DNA of 64,000 nt, from IMG/VR virus record IMGVR_UViG_3300009370_000001. One strand, 5' to 3'. Source of the stretch: a virus. Taxonomy: Duplodnaviria > Caudoviricetes. Position 1 is the stretch's first letter, and each line of letters starts with the position of its first letter. The notes under the pieces are model-generated. The model was given only the letters and a program-made list of their open reading frames with translations. It was not told where the DNA came from and made no database searches. Made by a program: the position numbers and the translations under genes. Below, piece by piece: positions 43,644 to 58,929 of the stretch.

Positions 43644-43889
43644 ATGACCTATTTTGTATATGGGATTACGGACTGTCCGGCCTGTCTCCGAGCGTGTGCA
43701 GACTTGATGGAAGCAGATTTAGAATATGTTTTTATAGAAACTGATTTTGCACCCACTTATCGATCTCAACTCAAAAAGCAATATCGACGCTCCACATTTC
43801 CTATTATTATTAGAGAGAGTGGGCCCGAAACGTTAATAATTGGGGGCCATGACGATTTAACCATCCATTTAGCCAAGCGTTCTGGTTGA
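43644..43889 (+). CDS. Glutaredoxin-like protein
   Basis: CPAC, TFPII, IIGGHDDL. Confidence 0.8.
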   Translation: MTYFVYGITDCPACLRACADLMEADLEYVFIETDFAPTYRSQLKKQYRRSTFPIIIRESGPETLIIGGHDDLTIHLAKRSG

Positions 43890-43930
43890 CAAAAACTTTA
43901 CTTGCAACTGATCCTCACGCGTGCTATATT
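43886..43930 (+). promoter_or_regulatory. Early promoter (variant of the repeated element)
   Basis: TTGACA (contains the upstream stop), then TTGCAA-17-TATATT with TG extension. Confidence 0.6.
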
Positions 43931-45111
43931 ATGATCAGACACATACTTACTATGTGGAACTTAAACGAGGAGACTTAGTAAGATGGGTAACAGACTGGGG
44001 GATTTATGCAGCGAGCGCGGATGGGTACGTCCAACGAGAATACCCACAATATGCTTACGGCGTCATAATGGAAGTATCCCATCGAGACCCCGATGCTGTA
44101 GTGGTTTATTGCTACGATTCCAAACACGAATTCGCGGAACAAGACACGTGGGTTATCCTGCATCTGGTTCACGACGAATTCGAGTTAGTAAGCGAGGGTT
44201 AAAATGTGTCTAAGGCGACCGAAGAAGAGGCGCTGGAAGCGCTTAAAAAAGAAATCCGGGTATGGTGTCACACACCATTTTTGGTTAATACAGGAACAGA
44301 TGACGGGGGGCGTTATCTGCAAATCTGGATCGAACGCCAGGAACCATCAGCACGTTTGGACGCCTGGATGGTAGAAATGCTCCCCGGTAGTAAATATATG
44401 GGTTGGCGCTTAATTGTAAGCAAGTGCCCACCCGACTATATAAGATTATTTATTTTAAATAAAAAACAAAAGGATTGGTAATGGAGGTTGGGGAACTGGT
44501 TTGTTTATACCGACGAAAGCATAAAGGGATTGGAATCGTCTTAGAAAAAGAAACGATTAGCGATGAAAAAATAAGAATAATAGAGATTGCTCAAAAAGCC
44601 GACTGGAAACAAAAAGAAGAACTAAAACGCAAAGCTCTTAGTGGGGCGTCTCAAAAAGGATTAATCGAAGCGGCCTTTCTCTATAACTTGTGGCAAGCGA
44701 ACGCGAAGCTCAAAAAGGATTTTGTTTATATTAAATGGTTTCAGTGTCCCTCGGAGTATGAACAGACAAAAACTACCACGGATGCTGATTGGTTTCCGGT
44801 TGATTGGGTGGGAAGAATAAACTAACTCTATACTTAGTTATGTGGCAACTACTCACATTCCAGTCTACAAAATCGGGGATCTTGTAAAGTGTATTTATGA
44901 TCTATTCGATCACTACCAGTATTTCTGGGATCAAGAGCCCGCAAGTGGCTATCCTTTCCACGGGATTATCATAGATATCCAAGACAATATGCTGATGGAC
45001 GAAGAGGTTCACGAATACGGTTATGAGAAACTTTATATTGTTCGCTGTTTCGATGGACACGTCAGATTTTTTGCTCACTGGGAAATGCGGCTCGTGTCAA
45101 CATCTTCTTGA
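43921..45111 (+). other. Four small genes, three with SH3/KOW-like starts (LKRGDLV, MEVGELV, YKIGDLV)
   Basis: 43921-44202, 44206-44481, 44475-44825, 44842-45111. Confidence 0.55.
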
Positions 45112-45151
45112 CAACTTTGTGGTTGACACCGGTATTAGAAGATGCTATATT
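45108..45151 (+). promoter_or_regulatory. Repeated early promoter element
   Basis: TTGACA-9-TTGACA-17-TATATT; directly upstream of tRNA-Leu; TGA ends the 44842 gene. Confidence 0.85.
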
Positions 45152-45159
45152 AAGAACAT

Positions 45160-45247
45160 GGCCGAGTGGTGGAATAGGTAGACACACCGGACTTAAAATC
45201 CGTTGATCATTATGATCGTGAGGGTTCAAGTCCCTCCTCGGCTACCA
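45160..45247 (+). tRNA. trnL: tRNA-Leu(UAA), encoded CCA
   Basis: Acceptor GGCCGAG/CTCGGCT, anticodon loop CT-TAA-AA, long variable arm, GAGGG-TTCAAGT-CCCTC T-arm, ACCA. Confidence 0.92.
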
Positions 45248-45248
45248 C

Positions 45249-45303
45249 CTTACATCTTCTTGACAACTTTTGGCTTGACCACACAAACTGGGCATGCTAT
45301 ATT
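45249..45303 (+). promoter_or_regulatory. Repeated early promoter element
   Basis: CTTACA-5-TTGACA-9-TTGACC-17-TATATT. Confidence 0.85.
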
Positions 45304-55935: not shown

Positions 55936-56141
55936 GGATCTTGAAGGCTGGCGACCTACTAATCAGGGAGCGCGATAAGCGCCCCTGTATCGTCTTGGAG
56001 GTCCAAGAGAGTACGAAACCCCAGTGGGGCACCCTGGACGCCAGCAGACGGCGATACAGGCTCTTTGAGAGCCATTCTGGAGTGTCCCGCTGGGTAGTCG
56101 ATACCGAGGTTGCCGTCAAATACACCCTAACAACCGATTGA
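55932..56141 (+). CDS. SH3/KOW-like family protein
   Basis: LKAGDLLI...IVLEV; stop inside the promoter element. Confidence 0.6.
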   Translation: MRILKAGDLLIRERDKRPCIVLEVQESTKPQWGTLDASRRRYRLFESHSGVSRWVVDTEVAVKYTLTTD

Positions 56142-56192
56142 CATTCACTTGACAACTTTTCCCTGGACAAACCTACGTACCCATGCTATATT
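56138..56192 (+). promoter_or_regulatory. Repeated early promoter element
   Basis: TTGACA-5-TTGACA-9-TGGACA-17-TATATT. Confidence 0.85.
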
Positions 56193-56217
56193 GTATGTGT
56201 AGAAAGGAAAGAACCCT

Positions 56218-57474
56218 ATGAGCGACGACAAACCCACTCCCTTTGACTTGAACAAGCACACGGCGCGGCTGCTTATGCGCGAGCCGTTTTTCGCTGGGCT
56301 GTCTCGGCGGATCGACAAGACCCCGACGACTGAGATCCCGACTGCCGGTGTTCGCATTAATCCCGAACGGGCACAGTTTGAGTTGATGTATAACCCTGAC
56401 TTCATGGCGAGCCTTAGCGACAAGCACCGACTTGCGATCTTGAAGCATGAGTTTTACCATATCATCTTTGAGCATGTGACACACCGCAAGCCTGCCGATG
56501 GCATTAGCCGCCTGGACAACATTGCGATGGATCTGGCAATCAACGGCTTGCCCGACATGAAGACTAACCTTCCCAACGATGCCGAGCCAGGACCACCGAC
56601 CGGATCGGCTGGTGAGCCCATGAAGGCATGCATCCCCGGAGAAGGGCCATTCGCTCACTTGCCTTGTGAGAAGTCCTATGAGTGGTACAAGGCAGCACTC
56701 CAAGACATGCAGAAAGAGAAGCCAGAAGGCGAGCCAGGGGAGCCAGGACAAGGCGAGCCCGGTGATGGCGATCCCTTCGGCGGCATGGATGCGCTGGACG
56801 ATCACGGCGAGTTTGGCGAGGGTCAAGGCACCGCAGACGAGATCGCTAAGGAACGTCTGAAGGAAGCGGTAAAGCAGGCAGCAGAGGAAGCCGAGAAGGC
56901 TAATAACTGGGGCACTGTTTCAGGAAACACCCGGCGCGACATTATGGATCGCATCGCTACTAAGGTTGACTGGCGCAAGGTGTTGCGTTATTTCGTGAAG
57001 ACCACGCAACGCTCCGACAAGACCAGCACGCCGAGGAAACTGAACCGCAGATTTCCACGCATCCACGCAGGAAAGCGCGTCCGTCGTCACGCTCGCATTG
57101 CTATCAGCATCGACCAGTCTGGATCGGTGGATGATAAAATGCTTCAAGCGTTCTTCTCCGAGTTGAACAAGTTGGCCGAGATTGCCGAGTTTACTGTTAT
57201 CCCATTCGATTCAGTAGTGGGCGAGGATAAGATTTATGTATGGAAGAAGGGTGCAACCCGCAGAACCGAGCGCGTTATGTGCGGCGGGACTTGCTTTAAT
57301 GCTCCAACCAAGTACGTGAACGAACACGGATTCGATGGACATATTATCCTTACTGACCTGATGGCACCTAAGCCGATGGCGAGCAAGTGTCAACGCATGT
57401 GGATGACGACTAAGGCATACGCGGCGCGTCCCTACTTCCAGACTAACGAGCGAGTCATCGCAATCGACAGTTGA
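56218..57474 (+). CDS. HExxH metallopeptidase-like plus vWA domain protein (MoxR partner)
   Basis: LKHEFYH, NIAMDLAIN, acidic G/P linker, ISIDQSGSV (MIDAS), GGT.F, ILTD. Confidence 0.85.
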   Translation: MSDDKPTPFDLNKHTARLLMREPFFAGLSRRIDKTPTTEIPTAGVRINPERAQFELMYNPDFMASLSDKHRLAILKHEFYHIIFEHVTHRKPADGISRLDNIAMDLAINGLPDMKTNLPNDAEPGPPTGSAGEPMKACIPGEGPFAHLPCEKSYEWYKAALQDMQKEKPEGEPGEPGQGEPGDGDPFGGMDALDDHGEFGEGQGTADEIAKERLKEAVKQAAEEAEKANNWGTVSGNTRRDIMDRIATKVDWRKVLRYFVKTTQRSDKTSTPRKLNRRFPRIHAGKRVRRHARIAISIDQSGSVDDKMLQAFFSELNKLAEIAEFTVIPFDSVVGEDKIYVWKKGATRRTERVMCGGTCFNAPTKYVNEHGFDGHIILTDLMAPKPMASKCQRMWMTTKAYAARPYFQTNERVIAIDS

Positions 57475-57524
57475 CAAGCACTTGACATTTCGGGGTAGAC
57501 AACCTGCCCCGAATATGTTATATT
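57471..57524 (+). promoter_or_regulatory. Repeated early promoter element
   Basis: TTGACA-5-TTGACA-8-TAGACA-17-TATATT. Confidence 0.8.
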
Positions 57525-57552
57525 GCTATATACAAACAGGAGATCCCTACTT

Positions 57553-58929
57553 ATGGCTCGCACAACCTACGCCGACCGCTTGAAAGCCCTTATCACCAAC
57601 CCCGCTATGTCTGCGCGTGACTGCCAGTTTGCAAGCAGCTTGCTTGCCTACTACGTCAAGCGCAAGTCGCTGACCAGTGGCCGCGCTCGCTGTGTGCGCG
57701 AGCTTGAGGCACGGTACAGCGCCGAGGCAGTAGCCGAGCGTGCAGCCCGCACCGCACCGCTAACGGCTCGATTGCAGGCGCTCACTGCCCGTGTGACCGA
57801 GGGTTCATGGGCTGGCGGGTTCGTGGAGTCTTTGACCGAGCAAGTGGCGTCAGGACGCAACCTAAGCCCACGCCAGATCGAGATCCTGGAGAAGATCGAG
57901 AGCGAGCATAGCGACGAGGCTATTAATGCTGCCGCTTCCTGGGATGCCGACTTCTCCGATGACATGCGCGACCGGCTGACCGTTGCGGCACGTTATTATC
58001 GTCGCACTGGCTACTTTACTAACCTTGTGGATCGTGCGTTGACCCCTGATGGCCAACCGACCGCATTTATTCCGACTGAAAAGCAGTATCGGAAGGTCAC
58101 CGAAAACAAGTATGCACAGAAGGTATTGACCGCGCACTATGACGCGCCAAAGTACGCCACTGGCTCGATGGTGCAACTGCGCCCGAGTTGCGGCTATCTC
58201 GCACGTTCCAAAGCAGGCGACAAGCCCTGTGTCGTTATCTCGACCACGGAGCCCATCGTGAGCGCGTGCAAGGGTGCAAAGATGTATCGGATCTTGCCCA
58301 TCGGATCCGCAACTATGATCACAATCGAGGAGCGTCACATTAAGAAGGCGCGAGGAGTATAAACATGAAGAGAATCCTAACCAACAGTAAAGTGATCGAG
58401 GCATGGCAGCGCGGAGAACGCGCCGCTAACCATCGTGGCACACTTCAATGTTACAGTGATGGCACGCTGTATAGCTACAACCTGCATATCGGCCAGCGCA
58501 CACCGTCAGGAGTGTGCATTGTGGGCGATTACACGGCTCCTGGCGGGGGGTTCAAGTCAGTGACTACCTCGTGCCATGTCGGACGCGCCAAGCGCGTTCC
58601 TGGGGTCACTGTGATGCACCCGCTTGTGTGGGTCGATTCTCCGTTGAGTAACGAGGAAATCCCATTCTAACCCGAGACAGATTATGGAAGACAACAATAT
58701 CATTAACCTTGTCGAAATCCTTGAGGAGAAGGAAAGACAGAAAGAGAGAGAAGAAGAAATGGAAAAGGCCGAGCTACGCGATCAACTGCAATGGGTGTTG
58801 CAGAAACTCCATGAGAAGAACATCACCTATCGAGCAGAAGACGAAGAAGAAATAGGGTTTGATGCTTATGAGCGAGTTCCTAAACGTAACTGGTTCCAGC
58901 GTTTTCTGGACCGCTTTCGATACGATTGA
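57553..58929 (+). other. Three hypothetical genes (57553-58362 with C-terminal SH3-like domain, 58365-58670, 58684-58929)
   Basis: Abutting ORFs with RBS; the last stop lies in the next promoter element. Confidence 0.6.

What the first reader, a model, noticed from the sequence alone, without database searches (positions are those of the whole stretch)
43886..58929. The promoter repeat supplies the stop codon of the upstream gene: integron-like cassette logic
Seen: the TGA of a TTGACA hexamer ends ORFs at 43889, 45111, 47421, 49332, 51019, 51328, 52734, 53355, 53657, 54765, 56141, 57474 and 58929 (13 cases); at 54522 TAG abuts the element. Several units are one promoter plus one gene (51095, 53436, 53734, 54580). 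Known: integron attC sites often carry the cassette stop codon, and RB49-type T4 phages shuffle modules via PeSL promoter cassettes. Inference: recombination at these repeats (possibly via the phage RecA; no integrase seen in the window) swaps, excises or duplicates expression-ready cassettes.
Basis: partly seen in the sequence, partly recalled or inferred. Interest (0 to 1): 0.8.

Follow-up and report, generated by a model that had tools for sequence, protein, structure and literature searches.

The report
Shuffling promoter cassettes, marine phage
An uncultured ocean phage places the same strong host-type promoter in front of many small early genes, each upstream gene usually ending on a stop codon inside that promoter, and relatives have gained, lost and moved single genes by crossovers within it; this is a variant of the known "PeSL" cassettes, not an integron.

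Summary
Observation confirmed. All 13 named ORF ends are the TGA of a TTGACA hexamer, and TAG abuts the element at 54522. The hexamer is box A (or box B) of a ~58-bp element present 15 times at 43.9-59 kb: TTGACA, 11 bp, TTGACAACTT, 15 bp, -35, 17 bp, TGnTATATT, followed by a conserved leader and ribosome site.

A profile of the element finds 385 copies, all on one strand, in the window plus 74 related marine viral contigs. In four complete ~195-203 kb relatives the motif lies in one ~10-17 kb stretch. Of 131 upstream gene families, 60 end in box A. That is 61% of genes that run into the element, against 33% expected from random frame.

Box A is equally conserved where it is not used as a stop. 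It is therefore a DNA signal, and the stop use looks secondary: a result of compaction, since other gene junctions here also overlap.

The cassette idea holds in part. Relatives differ by clean insertions or deletions of promoter-plus-gene units, with in-register crossovers inside the element, and one cassette sits in 20 different contexts. Most indels, however, lie outside elements.

There is no integrase, no attC-like fold and mostly no stem-loop. This is a PeSL-like variant; the scan has noted PeSL-like cassettes on other DNA before.

The parts
43886..43930 (+). Short variant of the element: TTGACA, TTTAC, a TTGCAA -35, 17 nt, TGCTATATT. Its TGA ends ORF 43644-43889.
   Evidence: not hit by the nhmmer profile
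45097..45153 (+). Element with a degenerate box A. The box B TGA ends ORF 44842-45111. The element sits directly upstream of tRNA-Leu (45160-45247).
45249..45306 (+). Element that starts right after tRNA-Leu, with no upstream ORF. It precedes gene 45304-45744.
47418..47475 (+). Element. The box A TGA ends ORF 47245-47421.
49318..49375 (+). Element. Box A is read through in frame and the box B TGA ends ORF 48955-49332.
51016..51073 (+). Element. The box A TGA ends ORF 50741-51019. It heads the single-gene cassette 51095-51328.
51325..51382 (+). Element. The box A TGA ends ORF 51095-51328.
52731..52788 (+). Element. The box A TGA ends ORF 52483-52734.
53352..53408 (+). Element. The box A TGA ends ORF 53146-53355. 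It heads the single-gene cassette 53436-53657 (family 34), the most mobile cassette in relatives.
53654..53711 (+). Element. The box A TGA ends ORF 53436-53657. It heads the single-gene cassette 53734-54522.
54523..54579 (+). Element abutted by the TAG stop of 53734-54522. A strong GC stem-loop encloses its -35 (TAGACA). It heads the cassette 54580-54765.
54751..54808 (+). Element. The box B TGA ends ORF 54580-54765. It heads the AAA_5 ATPase gene 54847-55935.
56138..56195 (+). Element. The box A TGA ends ORF 55932-56141. It heads the DUF2201/VWA gene 56218-57474.
57471..57526 (+). Element. The box A TGA ends ORF 56218-57474. A strong stem-loop (57489-57513) encloses its -35.
58926..58983 (+). 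Element. The box A TGA ends ORF 58684-58929. The homology break between the window and L002 (gene 58684-58929 replaced) ends here.
10807..11955 (+). UvsX/RecA-like recombinase gene, the candidate (inferred) enzyme for the short-homology exchanges.
   Evidence: phrog_97, E 6e-62; the nearest cultured phage homologue is only 30% identical

Best explanation
The repeat is the early promoter of a large uncultured marine phage. It has a near-consensus sigma-70 -35, a 17-nt spacer and an extended -10. Two further TTGACA boxes sit 15 and 26 bp upstream of the -35, and a conserved leader with a ribosome site follows the -10. About 15 copies divide a 15-kb block of small early genes into short transcription units, several holding a single gene.

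The genome is packed without spacers, so an upstream gene normally runs right up to the first conserved base of the element. It then ends on the first stop the element offers. That stop is the TGA of box A in one frame and the TGA of box B in a second frame. In the third frame, some copies offer a stop just after box B (shown). I read the stop overlap as a by-product of compaction against a fixed DNA signal, not as a feature the cassette system needs (inferred).

The element is also the only sequence shared between otherwise unrelated neighbouring genes. It therefore serves as a patch of short homology. Relatives show that promoter-plus-gene units have been deleted, inserted and moved by in-register crossovers inside it (shown by comparison). 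The enzyme is probably the phage's general recombination machinery, such as the UvsX-like recombinase, acting at low frequency (inferred). This is the PeSL principle of T4-type phages in a different element.
For: Element anatomy and promoter quality:
- Fifteen copies in the window have fixed 11/15/17 spacing and a TG-extended -10.

Family-wide conservation:
- The profile finds 385 copies, all on the + strand, in the window plus 74 related contigs.
- The consensus runs from box A to AAAGGAGAAA.
- In four complete 195-203 kb relatives the box A/B motif lies in one ~10-17 kb stretch on one strand, apart from one 1-mismatch match on the opposite strand in one genome. The reversed-pattern control gave no matches.

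Stop use:
- 184 of 385 elements, and 60 of 131 upstream gene families, end in box A. A further 19 families end in box B, 19 elsewhere inside the element and 33 just upstream.

Box A is a DNA motif independent of stop use:
- Exact TTGACA occurs in 72% of elements where box A is the stop. It occurs in 76% where the gene stops upstream and in 62% where there is no upstream gene.

Compaction:
- Non-element junctions mostly overlap by 14, 4 or 1 nt.
- 18 gene families switch between stop states.
- A deletion scar in L041 leaves a 9-codon remnant that ends on the box B TGA.

Recombination:
- Upstream of the AAA ATPase gene, L041 has 0 cassettes, L017 has 1 and L043 has 2. The flanks are mostly 93-97% identical. 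The single L041 element is a chimera: positions 1-14 match the first L043 element and positions 22 onward match the last.
- Further in-register events occur in L013/L025, L016/L033 and L024 against L023 and L028.
- 8 of 69 de-duplicated clean indels have both ends in elements, against 3.5% expected (p = 0.003).
- Element junctions carry homology breakpoints in 40% of cases, against 17% for other junctions.
- Where a block of homology starts at an element, the start sits at box A (median offset 0).
- The upstream neighbour is less often conserved across an element junction: 19% against 32% in the 60-80% identity bin.
- Cassette family 34 (window 53436-53657) has 21 copies in 20 contexts on either side of the core genes, and 12 copies are flanked by elements on both sides.
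- A UvsX-like recombinase is encoded in the window.
Against: - Most clean indels (37 of 69) have no end in an element, and non-element junctions are also very unstable. The elements are therefore contributors, not the engine.
- In the closest genome-pair bin (orthologues at least 80% identical) neighbour conservation differs little: 37% against 43%.
- Paralogous elements within the window are only 41-94% alike in the 5' half. Orthologous elements between genomes are much more alike than paralogues within a genome. There is thus no sign of frequent conversion, and exact homology is short (about 20-30 nt).
- Counts across relatives share ancestry and are not independent.
- Alignments extend into conserved elements whatever the mechanism, which inflates breakpoint counts at element edges.
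- Promoter activity, the role of boxes A and B, and the recombination enzyme have not been tested experimentally.
- No circle or junction reads could be examined.
Confidence: 0.68

Rival explanations
1. Pure compaction. The elements are only promoters. Genes abut them because the genome has no spacers. The apparent breakpoints at elements arise because gene turnover happens at gene boundaries, only recombinants with intact promoters survive, and alignments run on into the conserved element.
For: - Non-element junctions are just as compact and also highly variable.
- Most indels are not at elements.
- There is no concerted evolution among elements.
- The deletion scar in L041 shows illegitimate deletion at work.
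Against: - The in-register chimeric single elements at cassette indels are what homology-guided exchange predicts. Random breaks would rarely produce them.
- HSPs overlap by 24-85 nt on the genome with the single element.
- Indels with both ends in elements are about 3.3 times enriched over random junction pairs.
Confidence: 0.15
2. The stop inside box A is itself selected. For example, ending translation exactly at the promoter edge might insulate each unit from read-through transcripts (by exposing untranslated RNA to Rho or to the occasional hairpin), or it might set the level of the upstream protein through the weak UGA-C stop context.
For: - Box A holds the stop about twice as often as random frame predicts: 61% against 33%.
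- From general knowledge, not tested here: UGA followed by C is a weak stop context in E. coli.
Against: - A quarter of upstream gene families stop before the element, and 18 families switch state among relatives.
- Box A is equally conserved without any stop role.
- A preference for the first available stop is also expected from selection against junk C-terminal tails.
Confidence: 0.1
3. A dedicated site-specific system, a true integron analogue. A phage protein recognises boxes A and B and catalyses cassette excision and integration at the element.
For: - Boxes A and B are as conserved as the -35 and -10 and have fixed spacing, yet no known promoter role.
- Four of the five mapped crossovers lie between box A and the -35.
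Against: - No integrase or site-specific recombinase family matched the 30 ORFs of 218 aa or more that I scanned.
- The crossover position varies, from box B to near the ATG.
- The crossovers sit in the stretch of highest identity, as plain homology predicts.
- Orthologous elements evolve vertically.
- Elements explain only a minority of indels.
Confidence: 0.05

Closest known systems
PeSL (promoter-early stem-loop) cassettes of T4-type phages RB49/phi1, PST/T4 and nt-1/KVP40 (Arbiol et al. 2010, PMC2839356; Comeau et al. 2014, PMC4122927)
   Same: - A reiterated intergenic module runs from the upstream gene's stop codon through a near-consensus sigma-70 early promoter to the Shine-Dalgarno site and ATG.
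- It is clustered in a hyperplastic region of small ORFan genes.
- Indels and replacements between relatives have crossovers inside the module, including one near the ATG, as was seen in PeSL mini-circles.
- No dedicated recombinase is known.
   Different: - A stem-loop or terminator, part of the PeSL definition, is present in only 2-3 of 14 copies, and terminator-like sites are not enriched.
- In place of the AT-rich upstream region there are two extra, strictly spaced TTGACA boxes.
- The upstream stop lies inside the first conserved hexamer rather than in a variable AT-rich stretch.
- The host phage clade is uncultured and has no close cultured relative.
- Mini-circles are untested.
Integron gene cassettes (IntI, attI, attC, Pc)
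   Same: - Arrays of single-gene units are bounded by a repeated element.
- The element often overlaps the end of the cassette ORF.
- The number and order of units vary between relatives.
   Different: - No integrase was found.
- The element is a promoter and not a folded attC recombination site.
- Each unit brings its own promoter, whereas integron cassettes are promoterless and read from Pc.
- Exchange looks homology-driven, with variable crossover points.
Overlapping stop/start junctions (ATGA, TAATG) of compact phage and bacterial operons
   Same: A stop codon is shared with the first bases of the next functional signal, which removes all spacer. The same window shows -1, -4 and -14 overlaps at its other junctions.
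   Different: Here the overlapped signal is a transcriptional element on DNA about 85 nt upstream of the next start codon, not the next gene's start codon.

Membership tests
PeSL cassettes | Strong sigma-70-like early promoter in the intergenic module | tested here: met
   The element promoters score 9-11 of 12 hexamer matches (all but the 43886 variant 10-11), each with a 17-nt spacer and a TG-extended -10. This is sequence evidence only; activity was not measured.
PeSL cassettes | Stem-loop in the module that can act as a transcription terminator | tested here: not met
   Only the elements at 54523, 57471 and (weakly) 54751 fold better than shuffles; the other 11 of 14 do not. Terminator-like sites number 21 against 16.2 +/- 5.2 in shuffles.
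PeSL cassettes | [quoted passage not shown] | tested here: met
   The family consensus runs from box A, which holds the stop, to AAAGGAGAAA just before the start codon.
PeSL cassettes | Concentrated in hyperplastic regions of small, variable genes | tested here: met
   Elements lie in one ~10-17 kb stretch of four complete ~195-203 kb relatives. Gene order around them is highly variable.
PeSL cassettes | Indels or replacements between close relatives with crossovers inside the modules | tested here: met
   In-register chimeric elements occur at five cassette indel comparisons, the clearest being L043/L041. 8 of 69 clean indels have both ends in elements, against 3.5% expected.
PeSL cassettes | Mini-circles formed by recombination between neighbouring modules | not testable with these tools
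   All runs holding the sequence are kept as assembled contigs. The joints seen had short sides at 90% likeness.
PeSL cassettes | Host phage belongs to the T4 superfamily | not tested
   Earlier notes of this scan call the clade T4-like. I saw a UvsX-like recombinase and a cobS/cobT-like gene pair, but also a DnaE-type polymerase. I did not test capsid or tail genes.
Integron | Adjacent tyrosine-recombinase integrase (IntI) | tested here: not met
   PHROGs on 30 ORFs (218-1324 aa), and Pfam on 10 of them, gave no integrase or site-specific recombinase. The rest of the genome was not available.
Integron | attC site: an imperfect inverted repeat that folds into a hairpin recombination substrate | tested here: not met
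   The element has no conserved inverted repeat; 11 of 14 copies fold no better than shuffles. The consensus consists of direct TTGACA repeats.
Integron | Promoterless cassettes expressed from a common Pc promoter | tested here: not met
   Each unit begins with its own full promoter.

The most novel reading that the evidence does not exclude
Boxes A and B, two strictly spaced TTGACA copies with no known promoter role, are the docking site of a phage or host protein. That protein both boosts early transcription and targets strand exchange to the element. The array would then be a promoter-based cassette exchange system with a dedicated, still unidentified recombination factor, and the built-in stop codon would make any captured ORF self-terminating.
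Probability: 0.05. Interest if true: 0.8.

Novelty: new variant of a known kind. Interest (0 to 1): 0.38.

Why it matters
The finding extends promoter-mediated gene shuffling, known from a few cultured T4-type coliphages and vibriophages, to an abundant uncultured marine phage clade. It does so with a differently built element: three TTGACA boxes and usually no hairpin.

It gives clean natural examples of single-gene cassettes added, removed and relocated at the element. It also shows that a stop codon embedded in a promoter hexamer is a widespread, quantifiable consequence of packing genes against a fixed DNA signal.

For annotation, it marks the transcription-unit boundaries in these genomes. 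It also flags which small ORFan genes are the mobile ones, for example family 34.

The role of the two extra TTGACA boxes remains an open question about promoter architecture.

Tried and rejected
- Cultured relatives: megablast and blastn of 50000-58000 and 54847-57474 against cultured phage records found nothing. tblastn of the DnaE and UvsX-like proteins found only homologues at about 30% identity. No annotated close relative could be used.
- Whole genome: none is held for the window.
- Left part of the array: the search for related loci with gene 48955-49332 found no relative. With 41704-42675 the best hit was 63% identical. The array at 43.9-53.6 kb therefore has no close comparator. Close comparison of the window itself was possible only from 53.7 kb onward, using L001 and L002.
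- Sequencing runs: 20 marine runs hold the stretch or part of it, but all are kept as contigs. The joints seen had sides mostly under 30 letters at 90% likeness and came from repeats or relatives. This says nothing either way about circles or junction reads.
- Concerted evolution among elements: looked for and not seen. Orthologous elements are more alike than paralogues.
- Idea that box A is conserved because it is a stop: rejected, since it is equally conserved when it is not a stop.
- Stem-loops as a general part of the element: rejected.
- Tandem promoters: considered, because boxes A and B could be -35 hexamers of their own promoters. By eye on the sequences printed, I saw no matching -10 hexamer 17 nt downstream of either box.

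
Full report
**1. What is in the sequence**

From about 43.9 to 59 kb all genes lie on the + strand. Most are small (about 40-130 codons). Fifteen copies of one composite element separate them. The layout of the element is:
- box A, TTGACA;
- 11 bp on (start to start), box B, TT(G/T)ACAACTT;
- 15 bp on, the -35 hexamer (TTGACA, TTGACT, TAGACA or TGGACA);
- a 17-nt spacer;
- an extended -10, TGnTATA(T/A)T;
- a leader and a ribosome-binding site.

The consensus scan ranks these sites as the best sigma-70-like sites of the region. 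Each has a 17-nt spacer and a TG before the -10.

The copy at 43886 is a shorter variant. The copy at 45097 has a degenerate box A. The copy at 45249 follows tRNA-Leu directly, so that tRNA is itself a unit flanked by two elements.

**2.

Ten of these stops are in box A. Three are in box B (45111, 49332, 54765). The TAG of 53734-54522 abuts box A.

Two controls inside the window:
- 13 of 33 + strand TTGACA in the region supply the stop of a tiled gene, against 0 of 18 elsewhere.
- 10 of the 13 genes that run into an element stop in box A, against one third expected from random frame (p = 0.0016).

The element offers a stop in box A for one frame and in box B for a second frame. Some copies offer a stop just after box B for the third frame.

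**3. It is a family trait**

The window has no DNA-level match among cultured phage records. Its DnaE and UvsX-like proteins are only about 30% identical to anything cultured. IMG/VR, however, holds many related marine contigs, some of them complete at about 195-203 kb.

A profile built from the window's 14 canonical elements finds 385 copies in the window plus 74 related contigs, all on the gene strand. The family consensus extends from box A to AAAGGAGAAA before the start codon. Boxes A and B are as conserved as the -35 and -10.

In four complete relatives the box A/B motif occurs only within one ~10-17 kb stretch. It lies on one strand, apart from one 1-mismatch match on the opposite strand in one genome. 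The reversed-pattern control gave no matches.

Where the upstream gene stops:

| Position of stop | Elements (of 385) | Upstream gene families (of 131) |
|---|---|---|
| Box A | 184 | 60 |
| Box B | 46 | 19 |
| Elsewhere inside the element | 51 | 19 |
| Within 60 nt upstream | 71 | 33 |
| No upstream gene called | 33 | - |

Box A takes 61% of the families that run into the element, against 33% expected (p = 1.5e-8).

**4. Why the stop sits there**

Box A is exactly TTGACA in 72% of elements where it is the stop. It is exact in 76% of elements where the gene stops upstream, and in 62% where there is no upstream gene. Box A is therefore kept as a DNA signal, and its use as a stop is secondary.

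The genome is packed everywhere. Non-element junctions mostly overlap by 14, 4 or 1 nt. Eighteen gene families switch between stop states among relatives.

A deletion scar in L041 shows the process directly. A 217-bp deletion of a small gene leaves a nine-codon remnant that runs into the element and ends on the box B TGA.

I therefore read the stop-in-hexamer as the end point of spacer loss against an immovable signal. The first available stop is favoured because it adds no junk tail and places no coding constraint on the boxes. A direct function for the overlap is not excluded (rival 2).

**5. Do the repeats mediate cassette exchange?**

The proposed check was to look for indels in relatives with breakpoints in the repeat. 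I found them.

*The clearest case.* It lies directly upstream of the AAA_5 ATPase gene, the homologue of window 54847-55935. The three genomes there have flanks mostly 93-97% identical:
- L041 has one element and no cassette.
- L017 has one promoter-plus-gene unit.
- L043 has two units.

The first inserted gene is the homologue of window gene 53436-53657. Base by base, the single L041 element matches the first L043 element through position 14 and the last L043 element from position 22 onward. This is an in-register chimera.

*Other events.* They show the same pattern, with different crossover points:
- L013 against L025: the switch lies within the first 31 nt.
- L024 against L023: the switch lies at positions 11-23.
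- L016 against L033: the switch lies near the start codon, as reported for PeSL mini-circles (PMC2839356).
- L043 against L017: the pattern is mosaic.

*Counts.*
- Among 69 de-duplicated clean indels in the early regions, 8 have both ends in elements, against 3.5% expected for random junction pairs (p = 0.003). Another 24 have one end in an element, and 37 have none.
- Element junctions carry a homology breakpoint in 40% of cases, against 17% for other junctions. Where a block of homology starts at an element, the start sits at the first base of box A (median offset 0).
- The upstream neighbour of a gene is conserved less often across an element: 19% against 32% when orthologues are 60-80% identical. 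The difference is small in the closest pairs: 37% against 43%.

*A mobile cassette.* Family 34 occurs 21 times in 20 different neighbour contexts. It lies upstream of the ATPase in some genomes and downstream of the DUF2201 gene in others. It is flanked by elements on both sides in 12 cases.

**6. Limits**

- The whole region is hyperplastic, and elements account for a minority of events.
- Many other indels lie in arrays of paralogous mini-proteins, whose conserved overlapping junctions act as another class of short repeat.
- Paralogous elements within the window share only 41-94% identity in the 5' half, and orthologous elements are more alike than paralogues. Exchange must therefore be rare, and there is no homogenisation.
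- Counts across relatives share ancestry.
- Alignments extend into conserved elements whatever the mechanism.
- Sequencing runs were available only as contigs, so circles or junction reads could not be assessed.

**7. Mechanism, with its status**

*Shown from sequence and comparison:*
- the reiterated promoter element;
- the stop overlap;
- confinement of the element to one region;
- in-register element-to-element indels, and relocation of cassettes, in relatives.

*Inferred:*
- that the elements fire early from the host sigma-70 polymerase;
- that exchanges are homology-driven and use the phage's general recombination functions. A UvsX-like recombinase, an SSB and an exonuclease are encoded at 7.7-13.3 kb;
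- that the stop overlap is a by-product of compaction.

*Unknown:*
- what boxes A and B do.

**8. Comparison with known systems**

The closest known system is the PeSL of T4-type phages (PMC2839356, PMC4122927). A PeSL is a reiterated module from the upstream stop codon through a sigma-70 early promoter to the SD and ATG. PeSLs cluster in hyperplastic regions, and crossovers occur within them.

The defining stem-loop or terminator is missing from most copies here. The upstream part is two TTGACA boxes rather than an AT-rich stretch. I therefore file this as a variant that works like a PeSL, not as a member in the strict sense.

Integron membership fails on all three tested features: integrase, attC fold and promoterless cassettes.

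The scan has reported PeSL-like cassette systems on other DNA before, so the kind is not new. What is specific here is the triple-box architecture, the quantified stop-in-hexamer rule and the marine clade.

**9. Verdict**

- Observation: confirmed.
- Interpretation: partly supported. Recombination at the promoter cassettes is supported; the integron logic and a functional role for the stop are not.
- Novelty: new variant of a known kind.
- Interest: moderate to low, 0.38.

Noticed in passing
window 45097-45306: tRNA-Leu (45160-45247) is itself a single unit flanked by two promoter elements. The -10 of the first element ends about 8 nt before the tRNA, and the next element starts 2-4 nt after it.
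   Followed up: partly
window 47451-50734 and 59000-60512; many loci: Arrays of small paralogous proteins (MKVGDLV-type) have 14-nt stop/start overlaps. Many clean indels between relatives have their ends at these conserved junctions and not at promoter elements (HSP overlaps of 16-50 nt). These junctions are a second class of short repeat driving unit gain and loss.
   Followed up: partly
window 54540-54564 and 57489-57513: Two elements carry a strong GC stem-loop that encloses a weakened -35 (TAGACA). Both follow the two longest genes that end at an element (262 and 418 codons). They may act as terminators or as occluders of the -35. The other elements lack such a stem-loop.
   Followed up: partly
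L041:11240-11300 compared with L030:2456-2705: A deletion scar. A 217-bp deletion of a small gene leaves its ribosome site, ATG and nine codons, which now end on the box B TGA. Box A is degraded to TTAACA.
   Followed up: yes
window 54847-57474: A conserved gene pair: an AAA_5 (MoxR/CobS-like) ATPase and a DUF2201 metallopeptidase-plus-VWA protein. It is the stable anchor within the variable block, present in at least 70 related contigs, each gene usually with its own element.
   Followed up: partly
window 46145-46173: A further TTGACA-17-TATATT site without the TG and without boxes A and B, inside the tRNA cluster. It lies next to the stretch that another note flags as a possible structured RNA (45974-46128).
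   Followed up: no
window 19746-23186, 31701-33275, 23135-23800 and 29313-29969: The phage encodes a DnaE-type (Pol III alpha) polymerase, a GroEL-type chaperonin and two ClpP/prohead-protease-like proteins. This is an unusual set for a phage that other notes call T4-like.
   Followed up: no
window 58684-58929 compared with L002:5040-5275 and L001: Between the window and its closest relatives (about 87% DNA identity), the one gene directly upstream of the element at 58926 is replaced by unrelated sequence of similar length. The homology resumes at 58922, four bases before box A.
   Followed up: partly
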